A stretch of DNA of 53,774 nucleotides. It comes from an uncultured Planctomycetales bacterium (GTDB lineage: Bacteria > Omnitrophota > Gorgyraeia > Gygaellales > Profunditerraquicolaceae). The notes under the pieces were generated by a model that was not told the DNA's origin, did not search any database, and saw only the letters and a program-made list of their open reading frames with translations. A program made the position numbers and the translations under genes. The stretch is taken from positions 1-53,774 of the forward strand of contig CAYHAI010000102.1 in assembly GCA_964354585.1 (NCBI GenBank). The letters are read 5' to 3'. Positions 3,001 through 42,000 of this stretch are shown piece after piece; positions within the stretch are counted from its first letter, which is position 1; the number at the start of each line of letters is the position of its first letter.

Positions 3001-6000
3001 CCAATTTACGACCTATGGCTATCTGGTCAAAGTCGCTCAGCCCCTTCTCTGATTGCTTTATATTAGAACATTGCATGATTTTCTCGACCAAACCAACCAT
3101 CCGGTTATTCTGCAAAATCTGTTCCACGTGACGAAGTGCTTCCGGCATAAAACGTATGCCTACAATCAGGTAAGGAGCGCTTCTTAATTTATCTACGATA
3201 AGCTGACTTCTCCACACCTCTTCCTTGGAATTCATCATGTCTGCATAGACTTCAGCCACATAATTTGCAAAAACAACATCCGGGTTGCTGTTTATCTGTT
3301 CCATAAAATCTCTTTCCTCAGGATAGACCGCTAAAAATTGCCGGGTAAGCTCTTGGTTTAAAGCGTCCTTTTCGGTTTTTATTTGGGCTCGCTGAGACAC
3401 CGGTAATATCTTTGCTATAGGATATATAGCCGCAGCAGCCCCTGCTCCTAATAACCATGCGAAAAGCTCTCTGCGGGTTATGCCCACCCTAAATGCATCC
3501 GCAATGGCTTCTTGATGAAGTTTTTTAAATCCACTTATTCCCGTCCCCTGTAATGCTTTTCTGAAGGCCTCAGAATTACGATAAGGTCTATGTTCAAAAA
3601 TCCATTGAGCGAGTCGCTCTTTAGTTTCTCTATCCAATTCCACCAATGGAACGAGATTCTGTAAATGTTGTTTAAGTATGTCTAATCCTGCACGATTAAT
3701 ATTAGGGAGCTTAACTTTCTTCTTACGGCTATCGCTTCGTGAAGCTTCTACAAGCATCATCACTATCGTATGAGGCGTATTTTTGTTTGGTGATAAAGTT
3801 GTAAGTCTATCTCTACGATTAACTCTGGCTAAGGCAACAGATTGGGATAACCTAGATAAGAGCCACCAGATTAAGAATAAACCAAATCCCAAAGCTACCC
3901 ACACCCCCATAATAGGGCCGGGAAGACCTGGGGTTATACCTATATATATTAAAGTTAAAGTGGCTGCGGCAAGAGCCACCAGACCCTGACCAGCCACGAG
4001 AGAGATAATCCGACTTAAATCCTGCCGCAACCGAATCAACATCTGCCTCATCTTATCCCCAAGCCTTGTAAACCACTTAGGCAAAAGCAAGAATCCGCTA
4101 TTTTTAAGACTGTTGCTTGAGGATTTATCCTTTGGAGTATCGCGAAAACGGTCGCTGTCCCTATTTTTATTTTCAGGGATATTTTTGGTTTGGGGGTCGG
4201 TTCGCCAATGAACGGTTATCTTAGGCAGATTATGGATTTTGCGCATCATCATCTCAATATTGATATAAATTCTCACTGCCATTTTTGTCGCGCCCCAGAT
4301 AAGGAAGGCAAAGAGGTATTTAGTATCTCTTAATTTATAAATATTTATAAAACCATTGCGTAAAGTTCTCCACACCGTCTGCCAAAATGACCTATGAATA
4401 ATCTGCCATTTAGGGCCAAATAAATATTCTAATAAGTGGGAGTTATACTCAAATCTGGTTGCTCTAATGATGTGCCTTAATAATGTACTTGTGGATTTAA
4501 CATATACCTTGGCTCTTTTATCAATATGGGTTCGGTGGAAAGGATGTTGGGCTTTGCTATCAATAAAGAAAGCCGAAAGATATGTATCAGTTGAAATTGC
4601 AAAAGAAGGTAGCCCCGGATAACTCTCAGCATAAAACACGGTATGGGCTCCAAAGGGATAAAATATTCCGCTTCTGCTTCTCATAAAAGACGTTAATCTT
4701 TCCCAAGGATGGCTTCCTTTGAAAAACTCAATATCTGCGCCAACCAAACTTATTTTTCTGCTTTGAAGTAAACTTTCAACGCCAAAAGATAGGGCTCCTT
4801 CAGAAAATCTGACATCATCATCTAAGAAAGTGACAATATCGCTCTTGTTGCTCTTCGCAAATTCAACTAATGCATTCATGGCATTATTCTTGCCCTTCAT
4901 CGGTAAATCAATTACTACTAAAGGAACGCCAGGCAAAGACTCCAACCATCGCCTTTGATAATTTTCAATTAAACTCTGTCTTATCTGTCCTCTTTTTTCC
5001 GCATCAAGACCATTCACGCAAACCGCCACGGTTATCTGTCTTTCTTTAAAGCGGAGTAATTCCACCTCAAGATGTTCCAGTGTATCAATAATGCAGGGGT
5101 GGTTGGTGGGTATGGCGATAAGTATAGAATGCGGGTAGTCTATTGTGGCAGGTGATAATATTTCTCTTTGCCTTTCAGGCGAGAGGAGCTCATCAACATC
5201 AGTATAAATTGGCCCCAAATATTCTTGGCAAGGCATCTCTCTTTCGCTTCCATCTGACAAGTATATTCTTGCAGATACCTTTTTGCCAAAATAGGAATGG
5301 GCCACAAGAGGAAAATAAATTCCCATCCTGCAAGGCCGGTAAGAAACTTTTGATGGATTATTTTCTTTTCCTCTCCAGATTACTTTCACCTCTTGCGGAG
5401 GCGCTCTACCTCGATATGCTTCCAAACCCTCTGCTAAAAGAATATCTAAATTGGTAAAGCGCAATCTCATCAAAGAGCTTTCATATACCACTACTTCCGG
5501 ACTACCATAAGCATCAAGGCCGGTGACGATAATCTTAAACCGTATTTCTTCTGCGGGGATGTTCAGGCCCTTTACTAACGCATCAGCTTGAGGATGCTCT
5601 TTTATGAAGTCTAATTGTGAATAGGAAACCGAGTTTTCTTTAGAAATTAACTGGCAGGTTAAGCGATAATTACCCGCAGGCAGTGAAGAAATTTTTACGC
5701 CAACTTCTAAGTCTTTTGCCTCGGCGATTAAAGATACCCTAATTGGCGGATACGAAAGATTAATCAGATGGCGCAATCTCTTCAGAGTATATTTAAATAA
5801 AGAATGCGCAGGTAAATAAATCTCAATTATATCTTCTTCTTCAATTATTTGACCTTTAACCGCTTCGGGTTTATCAATTCGTTTATCACTATCCACAATC
5901 CTTACGCCCTTTCTAATCAGCTCTTCTGTCTTTAAGTGCGCCGGGCCAAGATAAGCGAGAATAAACCCAATCACCGCAATAATCCATTGTTTGAAGTAAA

Positions 6001-9000
6001 TACCACCGATGGCAAAAGCCAGACTACCAAAAATGGCCACCTTACTCCAGAACATTGCCTTTTCCTCTCCCCGCCTTGTTTTTATATATCCTTTGAGAAT
6101 CTGCCCGCCGTCAGTAGGATATACGGGTAAAAGATTAAAAGTAGCGACAGCTATGTTTGTGTACAAAAGACTCAAAATAATATTCCTGATTACCTGATAA
6201 GTATAGTTAGGTTCGAGGCTGTAGTCCTTTATATAATTTACTATTTCGGCTCCAGTATAAAGAGATAAAAATAGCATAGCCAAGAATAAACTCGCTATTG
6301 GCCCAGCCCAAAGAACGCTTGCTCTTTGCGGATGGTCAAAAAGGTTGACCTCAAAGAATTCTATAGGTCCAATGGCTGTTACCAGAACGCGCCTGGTCTT
6401 CACTCCATTGCGCCTGGCTTCCCAGACATGGGCAAATGCGTGTATCCCCACCGAAAGTAAAAGACCGATGTAGAGCGAAATGACAAACCAGGGTAGATTA
6501 CCTTTCTTAATAAGGTAATCTAAGATTAGCGGCGCTAATATCATTGACCAATGAATCTCTATCGGCGCGCCAAAAAGTGAGCCTGCCTTTAAGGAAATCG
6601 ATTTATGGTGCTCTACCACTTCTGTTGCTGGGAATAGAGTTATCTCGTTACTTATGCGCATAAGACGGATTAAAAGAAAGTAACCGACAATTGCTGCCAC
6701 GATAGGCAAAGTAACAGAAGAGCTCAATATACCTTCTACTGCCTGAGGTAGAACCCCCAGTATTATCAGCCCTAAACCCATAACCCCGGCTGCAACCTCA
6801 GGTAGAATCAAACCTTTCTTGCCTGTGTTTATCCTTTCCTTTCTCCTAAACTCTACCCACAATCTCCACGCCTCTGGAGGTTTTATGGATGGCTCGTCAG
6901 GAAAGGCAAGATAACTATTATTTCCTGAACGAAGAGGTATGGCGTGGTCTTTCACCTCTTTTATGCTGGCTTCCAGGTCTTCTTCAGTCATCAAAATAGG
7001 AGATAGTTTTATTATTTCATTGCTTGCACATTGCAGACGTCGTTCTAAGGCTAATATGTCCTTGCTGCCCTGAACACTTCCCTTTAAAATGTCAAAAAGG
7101 ACCTTGGCAATTGTAAAACAGGTTATCCTCTTACGCGCCGATTGCCAGTCAATTGCCCCTGAGTTCAAATACTCATCCACGAAACACTGCAGAGCCCCTA
7201 ATAACTCAGCAGTCTTTTCTGTTTTGGTTTTGATGGGTCCGGCCTTAGCGACTTTTACCTCTATGGGTTTAGATACTTCGGATTTAACCACCCTAGGTTT
7301 AGCCACTTCTGATTTAGCCACCTCAGATTTGCTGATTGCTTCAGGTTTAACTTTTTCTGCGCTTGGTTTATCAAAATGCTTCGGTGCTGTAGCCGCAATT
7401 GGTCTACTTTTTCTTTCAATTGCTGAGGGTTCTATCTTCGGTTTCTGTTCTGAAATTTCCCGTGGACTATCTTCTCTTACAGGCTTTCTCTTCGTTTCCT
7501 CTGCAGAAATTATCTTTAAATCTGGGTGGGGTGGACAGTCTGCGTTCATAAAGATATAGTGTGCAAGCTGGTGGATGGTCATTTTAGAATCAACCTGTTC
7601 TTGCATTATTTTTAGAAGGTCAGCCAAGGTCATTTCACCTTTTAGCTGGCTTATAATCTGTGCTTTCTTAGCATTTATTAAGGCTACCTTTTCTTCTTCT
7701 ACTATTCTTTCCCGTTGCCGTTCTGAAATTATCTCTAAATCTGGATGGGATGGACAGCGCCCACTAGAGAGATAGCGTTTGAGTTGAGCAAGTGTCATAT
7801 TAGGGTCAACTTTTTCTTGCATTTTATCCAACAACTCAGAGTGGGTCATCTTGCCTTTTTGCTGGGTTATAACCTCGGCTTTTTTAGTATACAAATCAGC
7901 TCTTTCTACATCTGTCATTCTTGCTTTCCACCAATTTAATCCCTGATGAGATTGCATACTTGGAATAAGCCTGCTCGCAGTCTCAGCTATCTTTGCATAT
8001 TTTCCTATCGTGGGATCTGGATCCTTGGTTAAGGCAAGCAAGTCGTCTTTCTCTAATCCTGACTCTAAAATCATCTGCACAATACCGCTTTGACGCGCCG
8101 AGAATCGTGCCATCCTGATAATTTTAGCCCTAAGTATTTGCAATCTTTGTCCCTTAGGGTTTAGTGCAACCATGGGTAGGATACTGGCAAGATATAAACT
8201 ACTCAAAAGTTTATCCGGCAATCCGCCACTTATACCTGTAGCAGCCCACCAATCCCGCAGCGCCTGGATAAAGTCTATTAAATGAGGGCTAAAATAGAGA
8301 ACCAATCCTGCGCTAAACATCAAGACAAATGGTGCGCTGCGCCAAATGAATGTTTTAAATTGTGAGGTGAAAATTCCTCGTTCGGTTTTACAGAAAACTT
8401 TATGGAATCCTAATAAAGCTAAGAGAATCAACACAAAAACAGCCATTGCATTAAATAGTAAAGAATGCAGCAAGATATATGGCACCATAATGGGATAATA
8501 GCGGCTTCTTTTTAATAGTTCAAAATTTGCATATATCTCCCATTGCGCCCTTAACCAAATTCGCCAGAAGAGGGTATTTTTCTGCTCGAGTATTGATTGC
8601 GTGGCTTCATCATAAGCAAAACCTAATGATCTTCTGATAATCAAATATCTTAATAACTGTCTAAAAATTAATACCTCCCGGGTAAAAAGTATTCTTTTTG
8701 CTACTTTGTCTTTTCCATTTTGTAATATCAACGTATAGGATTTAGCAGCTAAAAGGCCGAATCCTTTAACTTTTTGTAATGCCCTTAACAATGCAGCGTC
8801 TTTTCTTTGAACAGCCTTTTGTATTATATTGTCTGCCTCTTCAATGATTCTTTTTTCTGCCTTAAGTTGCGTTAAGCCAAAGGAATTAGAAAATGGAAAT
8901 AAACCCGCAAGAGATATAAATACGTAAAAAGATACTAAGAAGAAAATTAAATATTGAATGAATCTCTCATAATGACCAGAGAAAAATGGTCGTTTATAAA

Positions 9001-12000
9001 AGTAAATACCCGTTAGCGTAAACGAATTAATTGTTGCAGCAAATACAACATAGGCAAAAATGCTGTAGATTCTCTTTACAATATTTGTTTTTTTCTCAGG
9101 CAAGGTGGTTTTGACCAGTAAGGGTTTATTGATTACTTTTTCGCATGGGATAGCCTTGGTAAGTTTAGACGAATTTACATGCGCTGAATACAACTGTAGC
9201 GCATTGAAAAACATTCCTAAAATAATTATAATTACTATTGATTTTAATGTTAATTGTGCAAGATTAATAGCGGAAGTCTTGCCCACTGCGCTAGCAACAT
9301 CCGGCAATCCGCCGCTTATACCTGTAGCCGCCCACCAATGGCGCAGGGATTGGATAAACCCACTGATTTGCGGCCAGTGATTAAGCGTCCATACTCCCAA
9401 CACCGCCGCCACTGCCACCGCTGCCAGAGTCAAAATCATCACCCTGCCTGGGCGGGAATTGGGCGGCGATTTTCCTTCGAGGATATCGAGGTTTAAGAGC
9501 CCACCTTGTTGGGCATCGGAAGGAATTCTACCCTCCATCTGTTTAAGGATATATTTTATGGCTGGCGCAAGTTTCTGGAGCGCTTTATTACGAATCTGTC
9601 TAACGCGTTCTTTGGTAACATTTAATCTCCCCTTTCCTTTTTTTCCATTTTCTTTTTTTCCAATTTCTTCAAATGTCTCTTCTTGCCAATAATAGTAATA
9701 AATTACTATTCTTTCAGACTGGGTTAATCTGGCTTTGTGAATAGCTCTTGCAAATAAGTCTAAGTCTTCCAGGCACAACAATTCCTTATCTATATCCGCA
9801 GGCTCTGGGAAGGTTTCCAGGTTTGCCTCTCTAAAGAAAGCTACAGGTAAAGTGCTAGGATATTGCCTCGGGCTTAATTGATGGCTAAGGAATACTCTTC
9901 TAATTTTCGGCCAAATCTTTTTTGCCTTTGGACAGGCCTCTAAAAGCCGGGCATAAATATGCGGCGCCTTGTCCAACAACTCATCAAGCGTAACTGTATT
10001 TACATCAACATCCAAATAGCGTAAGGCATCAAGTATTTTGTTTCTTGTAACCATTCTTCGCCGGGCAATCTTCGCTATTACATCAGATTGATAATCACGC
10101 TCCAGAAGCATATCTACTGCCGCCGGCCAGCCGCCTAATTCACCTAATTCAGAGAAAATCATTTCCGCGCGCTTCACCAATAGTTGGTCAAAAGGCAATT
10201 CAGGCAGCCCAAAGGAAAGAGGAATAAGGTCTCCTCTTCTTTGCGCAAATAGTCTGCGCATTTCTCTGCGGAAGAACTCCAAGATTTCCCAAAGCTTGGC
10301 TTGCTTTCCAGGATCGGACCAACAATCTTTAGCAAATTCCGGCCAGCTCATCCCTCCAGGCAATCTTGGCCAAAAACGCCAAGGCGCTCTCTTAAAATGC
10401 GCTAACTGTCTTAATTTCTTATCCGGGGTAAAACAATATTTAACTTTTCCGTATTCGGGATGGCCTGTATCAACTACAAGAAACCATTGACCATTTTCAA
10501 AAATTGGCTTCTCCACCCTGGCTTTATGGCCTTTGGCGATTTTGGTAAGGTGGATTTCTACTCCTCCCATTCCAGAATATCCGTGCCTACCAAATTCTAT
10601 TTCAAAACCGTCTCCGCTAAAAGGCGGTTTCTGGGGATTATTATATATACCCTTTTTTGCAAACTGCGTGATTTGTCTTTTCTTTGCTGAAGCCACATCA
10701 GCCAAAACCTCGTCTATAATCTGAATGGCCTCTGGATATTTTTCTTGGTACTCTTTTCTTGTCTCTTGTTCGGCTTGGCAATGAGATTTTTTCTGGATTA
10801 CTTCTTTGTATTCATGGCGGGAAATATATTCTAAGACTAATTCGAGGATGCGCTGAATTTGCTGAGGAAATCTCCTTTTTATTTTTAAACTAAGCGTAAA
10901 AGGAAAACCTGGCGAGAAGATAACCCTTAAACAAGCTCCATCATATCTGCCAAAGGCGTATTTATCTGGCAGGTCTTTTGGCGGCGGGGCTCGGGAATCA
11001 AAAGATTTTATCACATAGAATATAACCGGTTTTCCTCCAACTTCTATCTTGAGCTTATTGTATTTATTTAAGCACCTAATTTTGATAGTTTTATCCTTTA
11101 TTCCTTTGGTCAGATAGCGCAAGCCTTCCTTTTTGAGGTTGCCCAAGAAGCCGAATCCTCCATCTATCCCGCCGCTGGGGTGGCCGAAGGAGGATATCTT
11201 ATTTAAAATTAAGGCTAATCGTTCGTCATACTTTTTTTCTAAAGCCTCAAACTTGTCTGGTTCTTTCTTTCGTAAGTCTGCTTCAAGCAAAAGCTCCTCT
11301 TGGCTATAATCTCTAATATATTCGGCCACGGCTTTCAGGATCTCCTCAGGATAATCTCCTTCTACCAACACATCATATTCACTTCCCGCCTCTCCTTTAG
11401 GCATAATGGCTAATCTAGTTAAGGCACCTAGATAACGGCGGGTATAGATATCAAGAATCTCCTTTGGATCTGTTGAGTCAAATTTCTCTCTGTAATGTAA
11501 ACCAAATAGAACGTAACACGCATTAGCAGTTACTGCATTTAAATTAGAAAAACCTTCTCTCCTTTTCTTTGCCCCTATTAACTCTGCTATTGTCTCAAAA
11601 TCTATCCCCGGATTAATAGTATCAGGGTTAATATAAATTTTAATCCCTGTTGTCTCATAAAGTTGTATAATTAGTCTGGACAAAATTACGACAGGAGATT
11701 GATGAAATCCTTTTGGTAAATTACATTGCACCTTATTTATGCGGTAAAAGCCTTTTCCGCTTTTATTTTTATACACCTCTAAACACCTCTTGGCAAACGC
11801 CTCATTCTCTTTGTCTGACCTGCCCAGGCGGACGCCAGCTTCGTGGATAAGGGTGATGAGGAGCTCTTTTTTGTTTTCGGGCTCAAGCAGGGATTCGCCA
11901 GGGGTAGTATCAAGATGAAGCACTTCATAGTTAGTTTGAGCTTCTTCTCTTACTACACCATAGAGATTAGGCATTGGCCCGGCGCGGCTTTCAATTGCGG

Positions 12001-15000
12001 CCATTTCTTTTAAGGAACGAACAATCTTTTTATCACTTTCAGCTAACCCTTGCGCCTCTTTTATAGTAGCCAGCAGATATTTTATTTTTTGAAAATCGGT
12101 AATAGGTAAATTATCTTTGATTTCCTTCTGGATTGCCTTTTCTTTCGCAACCGGCTCTTTAGGCAGTTTACTCGTCGGTTTTTCGCGGTGAGGATCCTGC
12201 ATCGCCACATTCATCCCGCCGCTGGCCGGGCCAGAAGCCGAGCCGTCCCCAATTATTTCCCCATTTATTCCGGCTGTGGTAGAAAGAGCAAAGACGAAAT
12301 CACATTTTGTTATGTCAGCTGCATCGCCGATCGGGACAAAACCCCGCTTTACAAGGAATTCAGGAACGCCGGATTCTTTTGCTTCTAACGCAATAGTTTG
12401 ATCCGATAATGATACCAGCTTCGGAAAGATGAATCTGCGTGGAAGCGCATGAATATTATCGTTATAAGCCGCATACAATATCAATTTAAGAGCCTTTTCG
12501 CCCAAGCCTCTGTGCCGATATTGCGAAAATATCAAGAATCTAAAATAAGCGTCTTCCCATTTTTCGCCGGCACGATACACGTATCCATACCCGACCATCT
12601 TATCTTTATCGTCAAGAATCATGTAATACCGAGACCATGTGGCAAATATATCAATAAAACATATGATACTTTCTCCGGGAATCGAGCATTTGTCAACATA
12701 TGACAAATCGGTATCTTCGGCTATTATCTTTTTGAATTTACGCAAAATAAAGAAACTGAATGCTATGCTAAGATTACGCGAGTCAAGTTCGCTATCAAAT
12801 CTTGCAGCTAGGCGACGCGCTGTTCGTTCATCAAGAGAGCGTCTCTCAACCGGACCGTTTATTACGAACGCGCATATCTCATTTGACTTAGCAAACTTCT
12901 CATGCTCCTCATCCGTCTGTTCAGGATAAACCAAAGCATGGCCTTCGTAGAAGAAGTCTGCTATTGTGGGGTTATCAATGAGAATAACGATTATGTTGGG
13001 CTCGGAACGCAGGTTTAAGATACGGACTGTTGTGTTGCGGTTCTTTTGAAATGCCTTGATTTCTTTACTCAGGTTAGATTTTTCAGGTTCAGGAGGGCCG
13101 GTTTTGACAATAAGATTCTCTAAGATTTCAACTATGTTAGAATCACCCTGGTTATCCTTTAATACCTGAATAGCTGCCTGCCTTAGCTGGTCATATTCGG
13201 TAGTCTTAGGCAAAGCCTTGATTTCCTTTGTATTTCTATCCCTGATAGTCTTTAATTCTTCCATTGCTTTTGTATCGGCCAGGGGCGGGTCGCAGCGAGC
13301 GGGGTCAAGAGAAATCGGCTTGACATAAGTTGTCAAAAATGGTATGTTTGTAATAGAGTTAGGAGGTAAGTAACTATGAATGCAAGAGCTAAAGAAGCCA
13401 AAAGGCACCTGGAAAAATTGCGTAAATTGGTCGCTAATACTCCATCCCCTTTTCAAGGAATGACTCTTGAAGAGGCAATCGCAAAGATGCGAAAAACCAG
13501 GGAACAGCTGTGGGAGGAAAAACTTGCACTTCGTTCTTGATACAAATGAATTTGTGGGCGCAACAGGATTAATCCGCAACCCGCCCTCAGAAACCCTCTT
13601 TAATATTCTAACAGAATCATCGCCAAAGCATACTATCCATATTCCTCGATTGATAATCAACGAAATAAAACGCAATATCCCCCCTAATATTTTTACAGAA
13701 TTTATAAAAACTGTTATTCCGATCGCTATCATTGATGAGGACATCTCAGTGCCTTTTGAGATAGGCATAAGATATGAATCTCTTGGTCTAAAACCTGCGG
13801 ATGCCTTTATTGCCGCATATACAGAATGGACCGGCGCCGACGTATTAGTAACTGAGAATAGACACTTCCTGTCTCGCCATAACCTTCCCTTTAAAGTCCT
13901 TACCGCCGAAGCCTGCCTTAAAGTTTTAGGTAAATAAACCAACCCGCCGCTGGGGTGGCCAAAAACGCTACTTAGTTGTTCAAGCACAGCGTCATACTCA
14001 TCTGAATAAGACCAGAATATTTCAGGGTATCTTTTTACGATGCTCAGAGGAATTAAAATAATGCCGACATCTTCAGCTAACTCTGATAAATCACCGGCAG
14101 CATCTAAAATAAAATCATATCCGGCTAAAGAGATAATCAGGTAAGTATGGTGTTCGTATCCCTGAAATCTATCGTCTTCTCGGTTAAAAATGGAAGAATG
14201 TATTTCATAATATAGAATATCTTTTATCTGTTCGGCCATTTCCCCAGAAGCCCTGCCACAAGGATTTATCTTAAAGTCGGATTGCTTAACCTTTACTCTT
14301 GTCTCATCGAGCTTATCAAAACGGGCTGCTAATGCTTCCACTTGCTCAAGCTGAGCCCTGTTTAATCTTTGGCCAGCATTTAATTCTTCCAAAATAGGCA
14401 GAATACGGCTCTTAAAATTCCTCGCCTCAAATCCTGTATACCTTGTAAAATCAGCTCTACTAATCCACATTCCCGGCAAAATTCCGGCAAAAAGTAGCCC
14501 TAAAGGCAATTTGCTTACCGTAGCAAAATGGTGACCAGAAAACAAATGGCTACCAACCAGCGTTACAATAGCGGCTGCGGCAAGAGCCACTAGGCCCCAA
14601 CCAGCCACGGTGAGGAAGCCCGAAGAAAATACCTGCCGCAAACGCATCTTTAAATATTCTTGACTTGGAGATAAATATATAGTATGCTCTTTGACAGAAA
14701 GAGGTGAAGAGTTATGCGAAAAGATATCAAAAAATCTATGGAACGAATTAACAAAATCCAACAACTTATGTCTAAAGTTCGCTCTCCTTATCGTGGCAAG
14801 AGTAAACAAGAAATAGTTGAGGAAATCCGCAAGACAAGAGAAAGAATCTGGGAGGAAAAGTTTGCTATTCATTCTCGATAGTAATGAGTATATATTTGCC
14901 CTTGGTGCAGTTCGAGACCCAAACAGCGAAAAAGTCCTAAAGAAAATAGCGGAACGGCCCGAAGACATCTTTGTGCGTATAACAAGATTAATTATTGAGG

Positions 15001-24000: not shown

Positions 24001-27000
24001 CCTGAGCCGTATCCGTCAGAAAGGATGAAAAATTTCCTTCGAGGGTAGCCTTAAGTATAGCCTTAAACAAATCTTCTTTATTCGGGTCTTCTTTTCTAAT
24101 AAACTCCATTGCCGGCTTTAGCCTGCTGATATACGGAAGGTGAAACTTGGATATAACCCCAGCTTCAAAAGAAGATGCCTGTATTCCCAGGGAAGCAGCT
24201 AATTCCCCAAGGCATGCCTCAGCAAGGCCGGAGAATAGCTTTTGCCAAGAAGTTTTCTGAACCGTGGCTTCACTTAACAGTTTCGTTAAGAGGTCTTTTT
24301 TATCTAATTCCAGATAGACGCCTAATAATTCCAATATTTTTTGGAAACTGCTAAAGTCTTTTTGCCTCAAAGAGGTATATAAGCACCTTAAGGCTCTAAT
24401 TATCTCATCATCGTTTATGCTTAAAGCCTCAAAGAATCTCCTTAAAGGATAAGGGTCGTTATTCAGGAAGCCCCTTAAGAAAGAAAAACTGTCCCCGGTC
24501 ATAATTTCTAATAGACCAATCAGCTTTAAAGAATTTTTCTGCCAGAATTGTTCTTCCTTTATCCTGCGTGACGCTTCTAATAACTGATTTCTGTAATGAA
24601 AAACCTCTTTTAAGAAATTAAATTGCTTCAACAACGCCTTTTCGGCTGAGCCGGAAGATAAAGAAAATAACTCTATATACATCTCTAATAGGCCATCACC
24701 TTCAACTCTATCCCAGATGTTTTTATAAGCAGTTAAAGATTCTCTTGGCAGTTCAGGATAAATTATGCCTAAGGCTTGGGCTGCGGCTTGGCGGACAGCC
24801 CAGTTGCTGTCAGAGAGTTTAGTTTCTAAGGCAGTAATGTCTACTTTTTTACCCTGCTTGAGCAGTTCAGGATAAATTATGCCTAAGGCTTGGGCTGCGG
24901 CTTGGCGGACAGCCCAGTTGCTGTCAGAGAGTTTAGTTTCTAAAGTAAAAATACATCTTATAATTTTTCGAATCTGTTCTACGGGTTCCTCTATACAACA
25001 CCTCTGCGCAAACGCCTCATGCTCCTCATCCGTCTGCTCAGGATAGGCCAAAAGGTGGGCTTCGTGGAGGACCGAAGGGATAAATTCGGGGTGGGTTTCC
25101 TGGGAGATGTCTTGAGCAATAAGTATCCATTCATTATCTTGTTCATCTTCGTAGTAGGTAGCGAAGATATCCTCAAAGACATCTTCCTTGGGGACTTCCC
25201 GGATGCGGTGGCCTTGGTAGATCTGCTCTAATTTATTTGCCACGGCTTGCGCTTCTGCGTCAGATGATTTTTTAAGCGCAGAGATATATTGCTCTATTGC
25301 GGGAGAGATGATTTCTTTTCTTCCTGATAAATTGCCTAACCTCTTGATGTAGGAAACAATCTTTGCGGGCTCGGGCGTCTTATGTCCTCCCCGGGTGCGG
25401 GCGAGGTCAGGGATACTGGTAAAAATACTTTCAACTTGACTTTTGCTTATCTTCATAGTATATTTATTTTTAGAGGTGAAGAAGATGAAAAAGATAATTA
25501 CAACAAAAACAATGGCTAATGACAGCTGGTTAAGAGAACATTTCGAAGAAGTAATAGATAAATATGCGGGCAGATACATACTCATTGCCAACAACAAAAT
25601 ACTGTATACAGATGCTGATGGAACTCCCCGCCAATTAGTAAAGAAATGCAAAGCCGAATATCCCGGCATTATGCCGCTCTTTTTCCGTGTTCCTATGCCT
25701 TCCGATTTTATATGCGCACTAATAACTTGATAAGCTTTCCTTACAAAACCTATAAAACCACGCCTTGCCCCATTATTACTCTCCAGCTGTGTGGAATCGA
25801 GCTCGACGCCTACGTGGACTCTGGCGCTTTCTATTCTATCTTTTCTCCTAAAGAAGCAGAGCTGATAGGCATAAATTATCAAACGGGCGAAAAAGGTTTT
25901 GCCACGGTAGGCGATGGAAGTCTTATACCCGTATTTTTTCATATTTTGCCTATTAAGATCGGCGATATTTCTTTTAAGGCCACTATCGGCTTTTCCCCCC
26001 GCCTGGGAATCGGCTTTAACCTTTTGGGAAGAAAAGACGTATTTGAAAAATTCATAGTAACCTTTGATGACGTCAAGCAAACCGTATCTTTTCTCCCTCG
26101 CAAATATTGTATAGCTAATCACACCACCCAATAAAGCGGCTGCAAAAAGCACTATTAGAGTTGGCACAAACCACGGCAGAACAAAACCAACCCCCACCAC
26201 TCCTGCCAAAATCCCCAAAGTCGCAAGCTCACCTAAACCGTGATTTCTGGAGGTATCTTTCATCCCGCCGCTTTGGCCGCCAAAATCTGATTTTTTACGC
26301 TGGCGGGAAGATTTTCTAAAAGTAGTGCTGCTATCCAAGATAACGTCATATATCTCGAAGGTAGAACTTAATGACATTACTGTTGTTACGACCCCTTCAT
26401 ATTCTAGACTAACCCTGCCTTTCCGCCTTGGTTCTCTTAAGACCTCACCAATAATTCTATGCGCATCTTCCCGCTCAAGAGACCAAAAGCCGCTAGTTCC
26501 TAAAACAATTCTTCCGCCGCTTTTAATGACGCGCAATGTTTCCCTGAAAACCTCTTTCGCGTCTGACTCAGGAGACGGGTCAGAGAGGGCGCCGGTTAAA
26601 ATTAAAACAAAATCCTGAGTATGATTTCCAATATTTTTAGACGCTGATTTCTTCCCATTAGAAAATTCGCCGCAAACCAATTTTGCACTACCGCCATACA
26701 TATTGAGCTGGTAACCATCAATAAATCTTTGGCTAAAAGCTATCTTTCTGGATGATAAATCAAACCCTATATAATGTGCTCCCATTGCTGCCGCAGCACA
26801 GGCAGAAATTAGATCATTACCGATACCCACATCTATGATATGGTGGCCTGGCTGGATTCCGATGGCGTGGAGAAATATAATTAAATTACTATACAAATCA
26901 TCGGCATCATGGCTTATACCTAATGCTCTACTCCCAGATTCTGCTGTCGGATATAAAACAGAAACCTGGGGACGCCCGCCTGTCCGCGAGGCAGGCCTGC

Positions 27001-36000: not shown

Positions 36001-39000
36001 TATCAACCTCTGCTGGCGAGCCAGTGTGGGGTTTGGGTATGGTGGTAACTGGTTGTATCTTCTCAGCCTTATAAACCGCATAAGCTCTTAGCTCATCTAA
36101 GTTTCCAGGAACCATACTAAAATCGCTTATATCTATTTGCGGTTGTGGTTTAAATTGAACGCCTAATTCTTTTCCCAGGTTTAAGAGTACTTCATCTAAA
36201 TAATATAGGTCTTTTGCAATAAAGGCGATATCATTTGGGTTTTTAGTTCCTTTAAATACAGTGATAGGAAATGCAGCGGGAGCATTGACAAAAATATAGC
36301 CACCATCAAGATTTAAACGGCTTACAATAGGTTCTATCATCTTTTTTATCTTAGACTCAAAATACCTCTTTGCATTATTTTCAACAACTTCAATGTCTGA
36401 ATGTGAAATATCAAGATTTAGCCTAAACCTTAATAAAGCTGCTAATTTGTCATCTCCAAATACATCTGTAACTTCCTGTATAACAGCTAATAATGTTATG
36501 TAATCAAATTTTTTATCTTTTATAGCATCATAGGAAACAAAAATACTTATTTTCTGCTCAAGGGCAAACACTTTATACAGTTCCTTTTGCTCCTCTATTA
36601 CAGACTCATCTATATCAATAACGTTAGTTTTAAGCCCCAGTTTAGCAAGTAAAATTGGCAGATAGTCGTTCCTGCCTGGACCTATAACCAGGGCGCTTTT
36701 ATCCTTTATCAATCCCATACCTGATACTTTTTGAGCAATTTGATGTTTCGTCTCATCATCAAATATAACTTTTCCTGAAATTCTATTTATATCATCAACA
36801 ACTGCTTTGACTTCTTCCTGAGTTATGGGCTTGGATATTCCACTGCCAAAAAGCCGAAACTCACCATTCCCCCAGAAAAGCTGGCGGGTTTCTATATAAT
36901 ATTGCGCTTGCTCAGCTGATATCCTCAAGGTTGGAGGCATTCCTGAAGAGGCCATATTGTTTATCACTTCAACGCAAAATCCATCTTGACGTGAAAGTGG
37001 TTGTATGTTATAGTTTCTTTGCTTAAGGAGGTGCTTTAAATGACTAAAGATAATGGAATGGATATTAGGATCAGAGATTATATCAGCTGTGACCCCGCTA
37101 TCTGTGGAGGAGATCCAGTCTTCAAAGGAACTCGTATCGCCGTTTACCTTGTACTGGACCTGATTGAAGGGGGAGTCAGCATCCAAGAGATTCTTAACCG
37201 CTATTATTCTCAATTGTCGGAAGAGGCAATCAGGGCGGCTCTGCATTATGCCAGCGAACTTATTAAGAGGTCTGAGTTCATCCCTTTCAACCCTGTAGAG
37301 GCGTAGAGTGCGGTTCCTTATTGATGAAAATATACCTAAGGAATTGGCTTCCTGGCTTAAAGAAAGAGGACACCTTATATTTTGCGTTGCCAAGGGAACA
37401 CCTGATGAAAAAGTAGCCGCGCTTACAAAACAACAAAAGTCTATACTCTTAACCCAAAACAGGCATTTTGCCAACTCTTTAAGGTTCCCTCCTCGTGATT
37501 TCCCAGGAATCATCAGAATTAAAATCCATCCTTCATATATTGGAGATATTACTTTTTCTTTAGAAAGACTATTTACCGAATTTACTGAAGAAAAACATTT
37601 CAAAGGCAAACTTATTATTTTAGAGAAATACGGATTCTTTAAACTTAAAGAATAGCTTTGCGTTGGCTTCTGCTTATCCCGCCCCTTCTTCCCCAGCCCG
37701 CCCAGATGCGCCATTTGTGTGCCGCCCATGTTCCTGCCATTTAGATTTTGGTCATCCGGTCCCCGACAACCGGGAAGTTCGGAGATGTGGGGCGGGGTAT
37801 TTTGAGGCTTTGCCCCAAGTTCACCCAGACCTTGAGGAGAATAGACAAAGGCAAACTTAGTGGTACGAAGAACGTCCGGGTAAATGTCATTAAATGCATC
37901 CTTAAAACTTAATAGTTGAAAATCTGATAGTATTTCCCAAGCTGCCGCTGCCTCAACTCCGAAAGATAATGTAGAGCCCCTAAATAAACACTTCATATCA
38001 TCTAGGTCTAATATAATAATGATTAATCCTTTTTCAGCTATTACCTCTTTTGCTATGTGGATAAAATTAGACAAAGTATGTGGACTTGGCGCAAAGATTG
38101 TAATTAAATCTAAATCATATTTGTCACTCCCTTTTACTTTTAAATCATTAACATCAAAAAATGTTACAGGTCGGTTATCTTCTCGGGCAGCTATAACAGG
38201 CTCGAGCAAATTCTCTATTCCAAAGTAATCTACCTCTATGAAATTTCTCTTCAATAACTCCTGCATCGTGAGTGTGGGCCGGCCAGAGCCTGCTCCAAAA
38301 TCAAGCCCACAAATACTCTCTTTGCCAGCAAAGAAATCACATATAAACTTTTCGAAAGAGTCTAGTTCTACTATATTCTGCTTTGAGTCCTTCTCCAACC
38401 GCTGCCTAAGCTGCTCGGCGACTTGGGCGAGGGTGAGGCCTTGCATGTGTAACATTTTTGCGATTTCCTCTTTTCGTACAGGCCCATAATTTTCAGGTTT
38501 GTCGGTTAGATTATGCAAACTCATATAACCAAATACGGCTAAATCTTCTTCAAGATTAGATAACCCGTCTTTCAAAAGCTTTACTGTCTCTTCTTGCGAC
38601 TCGTCCCACTTAAACAAAGACATTGTTTTGGTATCTTTAAAGAATGCTAGTATTCCATGTTTATGAAGTAGGACGTCATACATAGCCACTGCCCTATCCG
38701 ATAATTTCCCAAAACGATTTAAACTCTCTAAGAACTTCTCCCATTGTTCTCTCCCTTCAATAGAATACAAAAATGCAATAAGGCCTTTTGGGCCTTCTTT
38801 TTTAGTTAATTTAATTTCAATGTTTCTGCTTAATTCAATAATTTCTCTTTTAATATTATTAAACCAATAGTAACAAGAAAAGAAACTGAGTGCCGCCAGC
38901 CTGCGATAATTAAACCTCTCTAATTCCTCAAATAGCTTTGTCTGTTCTTTCTCATCCTTATACCTCTCCAAAATCCCTATCGCCTCTTGCATAAACACGA

Positions 39001-42000
39001 ACTCTATCAATTCCTCGTCGACGTGTGACGTGTGACGTGTGACGTGTGACCCGATGACTTTAATCCCTTGCCTCAGTATCTCCAGCGCTGTATCAGCATT
39101 AGGCACATTTCCCTCAAAATACGCCCACGCCGGCAAGACCTCTTCCATAATCCTTCTGGCGGCTTGCTGAATATTTATCTGGCCTGCCTTATAGGCATCG
39201 TAGATATTCACAATCGCTGTATCCACTTCTTCCTCTGAGCCAACAGTGGGCGGGGTGATGTTGAGATGTTTAATTTCACTTGAAAGCGGCTGGCGGGCGA
39301 GGTCAAGGAGAGACTGCGGTACAATATTAAATAAACCGAACTCTGCCATCCTTACAAGGTCCCTTTGCGCCACAGTTCCCAATTCTAAGCTAAGCCCACC
39401 ATCGCTTTCACTTTCATCTATTATTCTTGCATTAAACTGAAATCCTCCTTGGCTAAGCTTTGTCATCTCTTCCCGAATCTCTTGCGCAGTTGCTTCCTTG
39501 CCGTTTAAGAAAAATTTCTTTATTCCGCTGGGTGGAATAGGGACAGAATTCTTACTCTGCTGCTCTGATGGCTGCTGCCCCTCTGGGCCGATACCGCTGT
39601 CCTTCGCAAAGGCGCAAAAACCATTGACATTCTTGCCTATATCAGGTATATTATTTTTATGGCGAAGAAGGGCAAAACTAAAAGCTTCCTTACTGCTTAT
39701 GCTCCTGATTGCCGCAAGCGCCACCAGCATGAGCGGGATAAAAATGAAATAGTAGAATTTGTGGTGCAATTGGAAGTCGTAGTAAAAGGCAGTTGGCAGC
39801 CCGTAATTAGATACGATACTACTCATGGATTTGCTCATTGCGACATCATTCATTATAGTGGAAAGACGGAAAAAGTAAGGATGCCCACTCTTGATTATAA
39901 AGAAGCGTTGACCTATGCTGATGAAGACCTGAATGAGAATTGGCAGACTTACCGCAATCGCTATTTTAAGGAGGTAATTAATGATTAATGAGAAATATTT
40001 TTGGGAACTACAACGAACTCTCTCTGCAGAATTTAGTAAGTATGTCCTCGCCCATCCAGAGATAGACGACCAAATACCGGATAATGCCCAGATAATCTTC
40101 CAACTTAAGGGTAATGCGGATTTTAATGCCTGGAGTAAAAAGATAAATCTCTCCCAAAGAGAACCAAGCCAACCACTGATTATCGTTGAGATAGATGACC
40201 TGGCGCCGCCCTTAGAATCAAGGCTGGTCAATCCCCACTTAGAGGTTGCTTTTAAGTAAGTTTGTCTTATTGTCCCCACCAAAACCACAGCTAATACTAA
40301 TGTCCCGATGCCCCACCCATAACTACTACTCTGCCCGCCAAAACCAAATCTGCCAAAACCCGCGGCAAGAGAAGGCGTAGCAGAAGCAAGAAGGATGCCG
40401 AAGATGAATATGAATAGGCCAAGAATTGTGCTTGAACCCGGCGAGTCTGTGGAGGAATGCCAAGGTTCCACATACCCTAAAGCTAAATTCAAAACTCGCT
40501 GAAAAATTACATTATAATAATCTGGTATCTCCTGAATTTTTACTTTATGAACATTTTCGGGTCCTACAGTAACAGTGCTGCCGTCTTTGAGTCCTAACGT
40601 AGCTGAAATCTCAAGTTCGTCACTAACACGTTGTGCCTCTTTTAAAGTATTAATAAATTTTTTCCAGAGTTCTCCATAGAAGAAAATGCCCCGATGTTCT
40701 TGGCTTAAAGAAATCATTGTGAAAATTGCTTGTGTAGTATACTGAAGTGAGTATAGAGTCTGGGCTTCTCCTTCTTTTATTCTTGCGATTAGCTCTTCTT
40801 CTGAAATAACTTCTCCTGTAATAAGATAAGATATTGTTGCAATACATGCCTGCCAATTTTTGAATACTCCAAAATCTAATGTTTCTGTATGTCCCTGCGG
40901 AGGTTCAAATCTCTTCTTCTTTGCATAGCTTAATGCCTCCTCTATAGTAAAATTAAGTTCAGTCATGCTGCTTAATCTGAAAAGAACAGTTAATGTGAAA
41001 GCAAATAAATTTTGCAAAAATTCTTCTCTTTTACTTAAATCAACGGTCCTGCTAAAGTAATCAGCCGCGTCAGATTCCAAAATCGGTTGGATTTGTTTAT
41101 GATAGATTTTTTGCAGGGCGGCTTTGGAGGGACGAAGCATCTGGGGAGAGCCTTGGAATTGGGCGAGGACGGGCATTAATAATTCGGCTTTCTTACGAAT
41201 GCCCTCTGGCACATAGTAAAGCGCATCTTTGCCGGTTCCGATGCGTTGCAATAAATGCAAATATAGCGCTAGCGCCCATAAATCATGCTCAATGGTTGCT
41301 GGCTTCACCTTTAAGCCCTCTGCTATTTGCTTTCGGCTGCGGGCTTTTTCTTCAGTTGTGATTTCCTTCTCGCAAAGCCAATCAAATACTCCCGGGATAG
41401 AGCCAGAGGGGGTGGTATCGGATTTTTCAACCAGCTGGTCATCAAAGCTTTTCATCGCCAGAGGATATTGTAGTTTTGAGAGCCACCCCGGTACACACAA
41501 ACGCCAAGTCTTTATCTTGCTACCTTCTCTGCCTAAGCGCACTTCTTTGATGTTCGCTAAACACTCAAGAAATCTACCTATGGCTAAACAATAATCCCTC
41601 ATTCTCCAGATTAACTTATCTGTCAATACCAATGAAGAGCCCTCCTGCAATAATACCACCACGTCTGTCCTTAAGGGATGATTTAGATTTCCTATATTGT
41701 GTATGGCTTCGTAATGGAGAGCTTTTAAAAGGATTTTTAGATTCTCATTCTTGCTTCCCTGGATTTCCCTATCAAAGCTTATCTGATTCAGTAAGTCACA
41801 GATATGCCTTGTTTGGTCATCCATTTCTTTTAAAATTTCTTTTGTTTTCTCTGAAAGCTCCTTTTCTGGAGATAGCTTCTCAATATTCGCTAGAATTGCC
41901 GCGATTATCGGCCCGAACTTTTCTTTCAGGATGCGCGCCTCGGCGTTGACTCGCTGGGCTGGGGTTTGGGTTTGTTTAGCCGGCGGTTGCCTGGCGAGTT

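What the first reader, a model, noticed from the sequence alone, without database searches (positions are those of the whole stretch)
11165..26284. Recurrent FGHPSGGM motif marks six domain boundaries: a candidate processing site or linker
The DNA consensus (plus strand) is CATCCCGCCGCTGGGGTG(G/A)CCAAA. It encodes F-G-H-P-S-G-G-(M/I/L) at 11165, 13940 and 19292, with variants at 12212 (GPASGGM), 22949 (IHPSGGM) and 26261 (FGGQSGGM). All are in frame and all sit exactly between unrelated domains or just before a TM hairpin or cassette. The conservation reaches nucleotide level. That pattern suggests a functional site, such as proteolytic or autoprocessing cleavage or a docking linker, or a recombination scar left by module shuffling.
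Basis: seen in the sequence. Interest (0 to 1): 0.75.

Follow-up and report, generated by a model that had tools for sequence, protein, structure and literature searches.

The report
Conserved junction peptide in giant gene
A short peptide, F-G-(H/G)-P-S-G-G-(M/I/L), recurs exactly at seams between modules of a giant Omnitrophota gene and is conserved in a second genome with different codons, so it is a credible first candidate for a cut or recognition site in these giant proteins.

Summary
The whole window is one stop-free frame on the minus strand (17,924 codons). It carries exactly six in-frame, same-orientation copies of ..(F)G(H)PSGG(M/I/L), plus one possible decayed copy. Chance expects about 1e-5 copies.

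Five of the six sites lie at boundaries confirmed independently. Examples are the end of a domain that is the C-terminus of many free-standing homologues, and the first codon of a duplicated DNA block.

The main new result comes from a related Omnitrophota MAG (C20_maxbin.118). It has FGGPSGG(M/I) at two homologous junctions, one of them 4 residues after a complete HATPase_c domain. Its Ser codons are TCC/TCG, against AGC in all six window copies, and the flanking synonymous sites are saturated. The peptide is therefore under protein-level selection. The nucleotide identity inside the window reflects recent intragenic spread rather than a DNA-level function.

My best reading is a double-glycine-type processing or recognition site of a polyprotein (confidence about 0.4). 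Cleavage itself is untested and no protease was identified.

A separate surprise: three sites open onto read-through of plus-strand genes (PIN, an aspartic protease, a tRNA) nested antisense in the giant frame.

The parts
26261..26284 (-). Motif copy 1, FGGQSGGM (aa 9164-9171). It lies about 75 aa after a methyltransferase domain and directly before TM-hairpin cassette 1.
22949..22972 (-). Motif copy 2, DIHPSGGM (aa 10268-10275). It starts about 3 aa after the end of a conserved domain (aa 10150-10264) that is the C-terminus of many free-standing homologues. It lies directly before TM-hairpin cassette 2.
19292..19315 (-). Motif copy 3, FGHPSGGM (aa 11487-11494). It lies about 25 aa after the last helix of a CPBP/Rce1-like protease domain. 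It forms the N-terminal edge of a ~55-aa leader unit plus PPDK_N module.
13940..13963 (-). Motif copy 4, FGHPSGGL (aa 13271-13278). The codon after GGG is the first base of an 85%-identical duplicated DNA block that is the antisense of a plus-strand PIN gene.
12212..12235 (-). Motif copy 5, SGPASGGM (aa 13847-13854). It lies about 10-15 aa after the inferred end of a GNAT-like domain (a sub-threshold Pfam match) and is followed by a polar, Lys/Pro/Glu-rich stretch.
11165..11188 (-). Motif copy 6, FGHPSGGI (aa 14196-14203). Both flanks are unannotated, so the boundary is not independently testable.
15317..15340 (-). Possible decayed seventh copy, FGPAIGRI (TTT GGC CCG GCC ATA GGA AGA ATT). It lies between the motif-less hairpin cassette 3 and the antisense PIN2 block.
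26069..26260 (-). TM-hairpin cassette 1 (aa 9172-9235): Met, a basic stretch, a ~42-aa hydrophobic hairpin, then a basic cluster. It looks like the N-terminus of a signal-anchor protein.
22769..22948 (-). TM-hairpin cassette 2 (aa 10276-10335), a paralogue of cassette 1.
15335..15490 (-). TM-hairpin cassette 3 (aa 12762-12813). It is 65% identical to cassette 1 but is not preceded by the motif, which shows the motif is separable from the cassette.
19139..19291 (-). Leader unit (aa 11495-11545; ..PEL..A..L..E.HPGVLEA..). It is homologous to the units that follow FGGPSGG(M/I) in MAG C20_maxbin.118.
13467..13937 (+). Plus-strand PIN-domain gene nested antisense in the giant frame. Its stop codon lies 2 nt from motif copy 4.
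25440..26134 (+). Plus-strand DUF5678 and retropepsin-like aspartic protease genes, nested antisense just downstream (in giant-ORF direction) of motif copy 1 and cassette 1.
22530..22815 (+). Plus-strand promoter, tRNA(GCU), terminator, a second promoter and a short hairpin-terminated unit. All are nested antisense downstream of motif copy 2 and cassette 2.

Best explanation
The motif is a short linear peptide, F-G-(H/G)-P-S-G-G followed by M/I/L. It marks seams of an Archaeovorin-type giant polyprotein in one Omnitrophota lineage. It is placed a few residues after the natural C-terminal end of a folded module and immediately before a new unit.

I propose that it is a double-glycine-type endoproteolytic processing (or at least specific recognition) site. 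It would be cut after Gly-Gly, leaving Met/Ile/Leu as the new N-terminus. Cutting would release modules and separate them from membrane-anchor hairpins and from read-through filler that is antisense to nested genes.

Shown:
- the position of the motif at boundaries
- protein-level conservation between two genomes
- recent spread inside this gene

Inferred:
- that it is cleaved
- which enzyme cleaves it. Candidates are the C39 peptidase domain that West-Roberts et al. report near the N-terminus of full-length giants, or the CPBP, M50 and M48 membrane proteases encoded in the same frame.
For: 1. Boundaries.
- Site 22949: 25 of 64 homologous domains end their protein within 15 aa of the residue 3 aa before the motif, and 21 of them within 3 aa either side of it.
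- Site 19292: the motif lies between the end of the CPBP domain and a module whose free-standing homologues begin a protein at the same distance (77 vs 75 aa before GGKGAW).
- Site 13940: DNA homology of a duplicated block starts at the codon after GGG.
- L187 in the related MAG: the motif starts 4 aa after HATPase_c profile position 110/111.

2. Protein-level selection. MAG C20_maxbin.118 has FGGPSGGI (P0008) and FGGPSGGM (L187), each followed by a unit homologous to window aa 11494-11545 (BLASTP E 4e-11 and 3e-13). Between the genomes, 6 of 8 motif residues are identical but only 1 codon is. Ser is AGC in the window and TCC/TCG in the MAG. Flanking identical residues share 3-5 codons out of 19-22. 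Ordinary linkers do not hold their sequence at that divergence.

3. Residues after the motif look like N-termini. Examples are Met followed by a basic stretch and a hydrophobic hairpin, and Met followed by the leader of the PPDK_N module.

4. Three sites open onto filler that is antisense to real plus-strand genes. Separation from that filler would be useful.

5. Literature. Full-length Archaeovorin-type giants carry C39 (double-glycine) peptidase domains. Whether and where they are cut is stated to be unknown (10.1101/2023.11.21.568195).
Against: - No cleavage data exist.
- No C39 or other Gly-Gly-specific protease was found in the 17.9 kaa of the window, or in P0008 and L187.
- The -4 position is Pro/Gln/Ala, not the hydrophobic residue of classical double-glycine leaders.
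- There are only 6-7 sites, all within aa 9164-14203. Dozens of other junctions lack the motif, including four other nested-gene blocks.
- It is absent from about 110,000 aa of other relatives and seven PPDK_N loci.
- The closest homologue of the domain upstream of site 22949 (67-69% identity) has no motif.
- The within-window codon identity shows that copying by recombination is part of the story.
Confidence: 0.4

Rival explanations
1. Uncleaved hinge, docking or recognition motif. The conserved Gly/Pro/Ser turn would be bound by a partner, or would act as a fixed hinge between modules, and the chain would stay intact.
For: - The boundary placement and protein-level conservation are the same as for the best explanation.
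- The motif residues fall in coil, in the lowest-confidence stretch of one of the two AlphaFold models (the models are poor).
- No protease was identified.
Against: - Hinges rarely keep 6 of 8 residues across saturated synonymous divergence.
- This reading does not explain the N-terminus-like sequences after the motif.
- It does not explain why the motif stands where homologues have stop and start codons.
Confidence: 0.25
2. DNA-level recombination seam only. A GC-rich 15-24-nt microhomology would be used, or left behind, when modules and cassettes are duplicated, inserted or deleted in frame. The peptide would be a by-product.
For: - The 9-nt core AGCGGCGGG is identical in all six copies, and it extends to 15 nt (CACCCCAGCGGCGGG) in four of them, despite non-preferred codons.
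- All copies are direct and in frame.
- All lie in the one segment that holds the 84-90% identical duplicated blocks.
- The motif is separable from both the hairpin cassette and the PIN block, each of which also exists without it.
- A duplication breakpoint lies exactly at the 3' end of the motif.
Against: - The peptide is kept with different codons in a second genome. A pure DNA signal would not behave that way.
- The exact 18-mer and 21-mer occur only at chance level in genome and metagenome collections.
- No recombinase and no consistent inverted partner was found.
Confidence: 0.15
3. Translation-level signal. Either the sites are internal initiation sites (ATG or TTG after a conserved upstream sequence) that let modules be made separately, or they are Pro-Ser-Gly-Gly pause sites at module ends that aid co-translational folding.
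For: - The position after Gly-Gly is ATG in 4 of 6 window copies and 1 of 2 MAG copies.
- Met is only 1.4% of residues in this ORF.
- The downstream sequences resemble protein N-termini.
- Codon-level identity within each genome.
Against: - Two copies have ATA at that position and one has TTG.
- The sequence upstream (..AGCGGCGGG) has no Shine-Dalgarno-like element at a usable spacing.
- There is no shared RNA structure, and folding z-scores range from -1.7 to +1.3.
- The nucleotides differ between the genomes while the peptide is kept.
Confidence: 0.1

Closest known systems
Double-glycine leader cleavage sites processed by C39 peptidase domains (bacteriocin/PCAT type)
   Same: Gly-Gly at -2/-1 followed by a new N-terminus. 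A hydrophobic residue (Phe) at -7 in 6 of 8 copies. C39 domains are reported in Archaeovorin-type giant proteins.
   Different: The sites are internal and repeated within a polyprotein, not one N-terminal leader. Position -4 is Pro/Gln/Ala rather than hydrophobic. The Gly/Pro-rich sequence is unlikely to form the leader helix. No C39 domain was seen in the window.
Polyprotein junctions cut after Gly-Gly (polyubiquitin ..RGG|M.., LXGG sites of viral papain-like proteases)
   Same: The site recurs at seams of a multi-module precursor, with ..GG followed by Met.
   Different: There is no ubiquitin-like fold upstream, since the upstream sequences are unrelated to one another. No papain-like or deubiquitinase domain was detected. 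The host is bacterial.
Tripartite sorting signals cut by dedicated membrane proteases (GlyGly-CTERM/rhombosortase; MYXO- and JDVT-CTERM with CPBP-family myxosortases)
   Same: At two sites the order is motif, then hydrophobic segment, then basic cluster. A CPBP protease domain with weak MrtJ/myxosortase similarity sits in the same frame. Site 19292 lies about 25 aa after that domain's last helix.
   Different: The signals are internal, not C-terminal. There are 12-14 polar residues between the motif and the membrane segment, and that segment is a hairpin. The invariant Cys of the CPBP-processed MYXO- and JDVT-CTERM signals is absent. Four of the six sites have no membrane segment after them. 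The CPBP scores are far below the family cut-offs.
Junction motifs of polymorphic toxins (VENN in CdiA, PxxxxDPxGL in Rhs)
   Same: A short conserved motif demarcates exchangeable modules. It is conserved at the DNA level within a genome, and module exchange happens at it.
   Different: There are many copies within one ORF rather than one junction before a C-terminal toxin. The modules are enzymes, anchors and read-through filler. No toxin/immunity logic is attached to the motif.
Type I signal peptidase sites (-3/-1 rule)
   Same: Ser at -3, Gly at -1, helix breakers Pro at -4 and Gly at -6, and no Pro at +1.
   Different: No hydrophobic h-region directly precedes the motif in at least 5 of 8 copies. 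The flanking domains are of cytoplasmic type.

Membership tests
Double-glycine (C39/PCAT) cleavage site | Gly-Gly (or Gly-Ala/Ser) at positions -2/-1 | tested here: met
   All 6 window copies and both MAG copies have ..SGG before M/I/L.
Double-glycine (C39/PCAT) cleavage site | Hydrophobic residues at -4 and -7 (and -12/-15) on an amphipathic leader helix. This consensus is from my own knowledge. | tested here: not met
   Position -7 is Phe in 6 of 8 copies, but -4 is Pro/Gln/Ala in all. Positions -6 to -4 are Gly/His/Pro, which breaks a helix.
Double-glycine (C39/PCAT) cleavage site | A cognate C39 peptidase domain in the same system | tested here: inconclusive
   No C39 hit in the window, P0008 or L187. 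The window lacks the N-terminus of the gene, which is where the literature places C39.
Double-glycine (C39/PCAT) cleavage site | Demonstrated cleavage after Gly-Gly | not testable with these tools
   Needs proteomics or a reporter assay.
C-terminal tripartite sorting signal (GlyGly-CTERM, MYXO/JDVT-CTERM) | Signature motif immediately followed by one TM helix and a basic cluster at the protein's C-terminus | tested here: not met
   The sites are internal. There is a 12-14-aa polar spacer and a TM hairpin, at only 2 of 6 sites.
C-terminal tripartite sorting signal (GlyGly-CTERM, MYXO/JDVT-CTERM) | Cognate sorting protease family member | tested here: inconclusive
   The CPBP domain hits MrtJ at 23.9 bits (cut-off 75), pepcterm_CAAX at 21.5 bits (cut-off 81) and Mrt_core at 17.6 bits (cut-off 100).
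Ubiquitin-like / LXGG polyprotein junction | A conserved beta-grasp or other common fold upstream of Gly-Gly, plus a papain-like or JAMM protease | tested here: not met
   The upstream sequences are mutually unrelated. No such protease domain was found.
Site-specific recombination or attachment site | Same DNA core kept between genomes, partner inverted or direct core sites flanking mobile units, and a recombinase nearby | tested here: not met
   The DNA differs between the genomes. Only one 12-nt inverted match was found, around the PIN block, and no other inverted copies above chance. No recombinase appeared among the Pfam hits.
Archaeovorin-type Omnitrophota giant gene (the host gene) | A very long ORF with many TM segments and the HEAT_2, HATPase_c, PPDK_N, methyltransferase and peptidase domain set, in Omnitrophota | tested here: met
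   17,924 stop-free codons. About 65 hydrophobic segments. The nearest relatives are Omnitrophota MAGs.
Archaeovorin-type Omnitrophota giant gene (the host gene) | SecA-DEAD-like domain and an N-terminal C39/S8 peptidase | tested here: inconclusive
   Neither was detected, but the gene runs off both ends of the window.

The most novel reading that the evidence does not exclude
These giant genes may act as operon-like polyproteins. The frame is kept open even across nested antisense toxin-antitoxin genes and a tRNA gene, and FG(H/G)PSGG|(M/I/L) is the cut site at which a protease of the same precursor releases modules and discards the read-through filler. This would be the first defined processing site of a bacterial giant protein.
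Probability: 0.3. Interest if true: 0.85.

Novelty: new variant of a known kind. Interest (0 to 1): 0.66.

Why it matters
The literature on Omnitrophota giant genes states that it is unknown whether the products are cut, and that the lack of known cleavage points blocks even in-silico dissection (10.1101/2023.11.21.568195).

This motif gives a concrete, sequence-defined candidate. It can be searched for in proteomic data as neo-N-termini after Gly-Gly. It can be tested in a reporter. It can also be used to segment such proteins for structure prediction.

The context matters too. The frame is held open across real antisense genes, which argues that uninterrupted translation of the whole frame is itself selected.

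Tried and rejected
**RNA element.** Folding 141 nt around each site gave no shared structure and no significant z-score. Rfam found nothing at the sites.

**DNA motif elsewhere.**
- The exact 18-mer in genome contigs gave 59 single hits in unrelated taxa.
- Degenerate FGHPSGGM gave 25 single hits, none in Omnitrophota.
- The 21-mer in viral contigs gave 1 hit.
- The 21-mer in metagenome contigs gave 93 hits. About two thirds are one interspersed repeat, non-coding in the motif frame, which I judge coincidental. The rest are at chance level.

**Homologue searches that found nothing.** These were aa 13100-14300 and the hairpin-cassette profile.

**tRNA 3'-end or att-site idea.** The plus-strand motif resembles the 3' end of the nested tRNA at 12 of 17 positions with an indel. 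There is no tRNA-like hit at the motif sites at E<=1. Rejected.

**Inverted-repeat or inverton idea.** A 12-nt, 92% inverted match brackets the PIN1 block. No inverted copies occur above chance elsewhere. Left as a weak lead.

**Truncated leader-unit idea.** The leader unit does not follow the other five copies; BLAST finds it once in the window.

**AlphaFold.** Two ~676-aa stretches gave mean pLDDT of 35-38, which is unusable beyond showing coil at the motif. No fold search was attempted on them.

**Literature.** No paper holds GHPSGG or HPSGGM, and the single FGHPSG hit is an unrelated nematode neuropeptide preprint.


Full report
**1. What is there**

The window is a single open frame on the minus strand (nt 2-53773; 17,924 codons). 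It has no stop and runs off both ends.

Pfam hits in that frame:
- two HATPase_c domains
- HTH domains
- several methyltransferases
- peptidase M48
- ABC1 kinase
- HEAT repeats
- a CPBP/Rce1-like protease
- PPDK_N
- a receiver domain
- a GNAT-like domain (below the Pfam cut-off)
- sigma-70 region 4
- peptidase M50
- a GT2-like domain (below the Pfam cut-off)

A simple hydropathy scan gives about 65 hydrophobic segments. This domain set, together with nearest relatives in Omnitrophota MAGs, matches the 'Archaeovorin-type' giant genes of West-Roberts et al. (10.1101/2023.11.21.568195).

**2. The observation**

The six copies are at the stated coordinates. All are on the coding strand and in frame.
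- A weight matrix finds exactly six copies (37.8 bits or more), and nothing else above 9.7 bits on either strand.
- FGHPSGG is one of only three distinct recurrent heptamer motifs in the protein. Unlike the other two, it has no conserved flanks.
- AGC-GGC-GGG is identical in all six copies, and CAC-CCC in all four HP copies. None of these codons is strongly favoured in this ORF (usage 0.19-0.31). If the copies were independent, the chance that five of them repeat the first copy's three codons would be about (0.205 x 0.313 x 0.192)^5, roughly 3e-10.
- A likely decayed seventh copy (FGPAIGRI) lies at 15317-15340.

**3. Are the sites boundaries?**

- *Site 22949.* A full HMMER search of 1.84 billion representatives showed that aa 10150-10264 is a widespread domain. 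Of 64 hits that cover its end, 25 terminate their protein within 15 aa of the residue 3 aa before the motif, and 21 within 3 aa either side of it (sequences).
- *Site 19292.* The motif lies between the end of the CPBP domain and a leader-plus-PPDK_N module. In three of seven related loci that module starts a protein 65-95 aa before the GGKGAW signature. In the window, the Met of the motif is 77 aa before it.
- *Site 13940.* An 85%-identical duplicated DNA block starts at the codon after GGG.
- *Sites 26261 and 22949.* Homology of the TM-hairpin cassette starts at the motif.
- *Site 12212.* It follows the inferred end of a GNAT-like domain by about 10-15 aa.
- *Site 11165.* This one could not be tested.

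The motif is separable from its neighbours. A third hairpin cassette (65% identical to the first) and the second PIN block both exist without it.

**4. Peptide or DNA?**

Inside the window the copies look recent.
- All six lie in aa 9164-14203. That segment also holds all the 84-90% identical duplicated blocks.
- Within those blocks, identical residues share 76-82% of their codons.
- The 9-nt core is somewhat better kept than that background would give (about 0.87^45, roughly 2e-3). This points to selection or homogenisation.

The decisive comparison came from outside the window. The representative search returned P0008 (3,552 aa), which carries FGGPSGGI. Its contig belongs to MAG 'Ca. Omnitrophota C20_maxbin.118' (GC 0.50). 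A pattern-plus-tblastn scan found a second copy, FGGPSGGM, on another contig of the same MAG (L187). That copy starts 4 residues after a complete HATPase_c domain (profile 2-110 of 111).

Both MAG copies are followed by a ~55-aa unit homologous to window aa 11494-11545 (E 4e-11 and 3e-13). Comparing window and MAG:
- 6 of 8 motif residues are identical, but only 1 codon is.
- Ser is AGC in the window and TCC/TCG in the MAG.
- The flanking unit shares only 3-5 codons among 19-22 identical residues.
- Within the MAG, the two copies share 6 of 7 motif codons, against 22 of 38 in the flank.

So the amino-acid sequence has been held through saturated synonymous change. The codon identity within each genome is explained by paralogue recency. 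This is the pattern of a protein-level functional site. It argues against a purely DNA-level scar, RNA element or start signal. No common RNA fold exists.

**5. How general is it?**

It is not general. PSGG occurs in none of the other 97 proteins fetched (about 110,000 aa in all with P0008), many of which are long multi-domain proteins that share modules with this window. It also does not occur in the coding frame of the seven PPDK_N loci. The closest homologue of the domain upstream of site 22949 (67-69% identity) diverges right after FHVIK and lacks the motif. Exact and degenerate DNA scans of genome, metagenome and viral collections gave only chance-level hits, plus one unrelated high-copy repeat.

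**6. Unexpected context**

Minus-frame coding potential drops sharply after site 13940, and also at several other places. The reason is that the plus strand carries real genes nested antisense in the giant frame:
- two PIN genes
- DUF5678 plus a retropepsin-like protease
- two DUF433-DUF5615 pairs
- DUF7718-DUF5647
- HicB-HicA
- a tRNA(GCU) with a near-consensus promoter and a terminator

In every one of the twelve nested protein-coding genes, the phase read by the giant frame contains no TTA, CTA or TCA. The other phases mostly contain 5-17 (twice fewer), and TTA is the commonest Leu codon in this ORF. The frame is therefore actively kept open.

The same nesting (DUF433 plus DUF5615 inside P0008's ORF) is present in the related MAG.

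In giant-ORF direction, three motif copies open these blocks:
- motif, then antisense PIN1
- motif, then hairpin cassette, then antisense protease pair
- motif, then hairpin cassette, then antisense tRNA unit

**7. Mechanism**

Taken together, the motif stands where free-standing homologues have their stop codon on one side and their start on the other. It is followed by N-terminus-like sequence: Met, or Met plus a basic stretch plus a hydrophobic hairpin. It is held by protein-level selection, and it often separates real modules from filler.

The most economical function is a specific endoproteolytic or recognition site of the double-glycine kind. [quoted passage not shown] The window itself encodes CPBP, M50 and M48 membrane proteases.

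Against this reading:
- No cleavage evidence exists.
- No Gly-Gly protease was seen in the window.
- The -4 residue breaks the classical leader rule.
- Few junctions carry the motif.

I put the processing-site reading at about 0.4, an uncleaved hinge or docking motif at 0.25, a recombination seam without peptide function at 0.15, and a translation-level signal at 0.1.

**8. Novelty**

No paper in the library holds the motif itself; the one partial-string hit is an unrelated nematode neuropeptide preprint. It works like known Gly-Gly junction sites but fails the membership tests for each named family. I therefore file it as a new variant of a known kind. It is lineage-restricted, but it bears directly on an open question.

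Noticed in passing
window + strand: 13467-13937, 14817-15275, 20424-21040, 25440-26134, 37040-37652, 39569-40256, 48693-49156: Seven plus-strand gene units, mostly toxin-antitoxin-type pairs, are nested antisense inside the giant minus-strand frame. They are PIN x2, DUF433+DUF5615 x2, DUF5678+aspartic protease, DUF7718+DUF5647 and HicB+HicA. The strongest Pfam E-value is 3e-35; both PIN hits are below the Pfam cut-off. In each gene the phase read by the giant frame has zero TTA/CTA/TCA, while the other phases mostly have 5-17. The same DUF433+DUF5615 nesting occurs in the related MAG (L186, about 6650-7300). The two Omnitrophota giant-gene papers searched do not mention this.
   Followed up: partly
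window 22530-22815, + strand: A well-formed tRNA (64.9 bits; anticodon GCU; only ~75 nt, so it lacks the long variable arm expected of bacterial tRNA-Ser) lies antisense inside the giant frame. It has a TTGACA-17-TAACAT promoter and a hairpin terminator. Just downstream a second promoter (TTGACA-17-TATACT) precedes a short unit (22738-22770) that is the reverse complement of the tRNA's D and anticodon arms (18 nt at 89% and 11 nt at 100%). That unit is followed by another hairpin with a T-run.
   Followed up: partly
loci L086-L177 (metagenome samples Ga0056108, Ga0056133, Ga0056135, Ga0209259, Ga0209459): A high-copy interspersed repeat with an (ACAG)n/A-rich stretch upstream shares 26 identical bases with motif copy 4 (CGTTTTTGGCCACCCCAGCGGCGGGT). 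A TGA follows directly, and there is no similarity beyond that. No Rfam family matches. Probably coincidence, but 7 unforced positions also match.
   Followed up: partly
window aa 1477-1530 / 4450-4502; 9172-9235 / 10276-10335 / 12762-12813; 10864-10896 / 17828-17860; 13044-13068 / 16579-16605 / 17878-17901: Several families of short TM-hairpin cassettes recur (47-80% identity). In six cases they sit just upstream, in giant-ORF direction, of a nested antisense gene block. It looks as if a membrane hairpin and the filler form one unit.
   Followed up: partly
window aa ~9457, ~10442, ~11133, ~13490 (nt about 25391-25405, 22436-22450, 20356-20370, 13292-13306): After nested blocks the real coding resumes with D(P/L)AR(T/C).. 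(modules A and B). The GC-rich DNA there is partly complementary to the motif core. A 12-nt, 92% inverted match (13279-13290 / 13942-13953) brackets the PIN1 block, but no such pair was found for the other blocks.
   Followed up: partly
window aa 10150-10264 (nt about 22982-23326): A conserved domain with no Pfam match (..DNIE(I/V)..KIGGYL..YYLEAL..) has 64 hits among the representatives returned. It is very often the C-terminal domain of 0.5-1.3-kaa proteins that also carry HEAT-like repeats.
   Followed up: partly
window aa 9611-9639 and 9649-9677 (HEAT region); aa 10618-10633 and 10655-10670: Near-identical short tandem duplications (98-99% DNA identity) inside the same reshuffled segment. 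They show very recent local duplication.
   Followed up: no
window aa 1943, 3209, 3926, 4825: The pentamer LARQP recurs four times with unrelated flanks and different codons. One copy lies about 10 aa after a HATPase_c end. It may be chance, or a second weaker junction motif.
   Followed up: no
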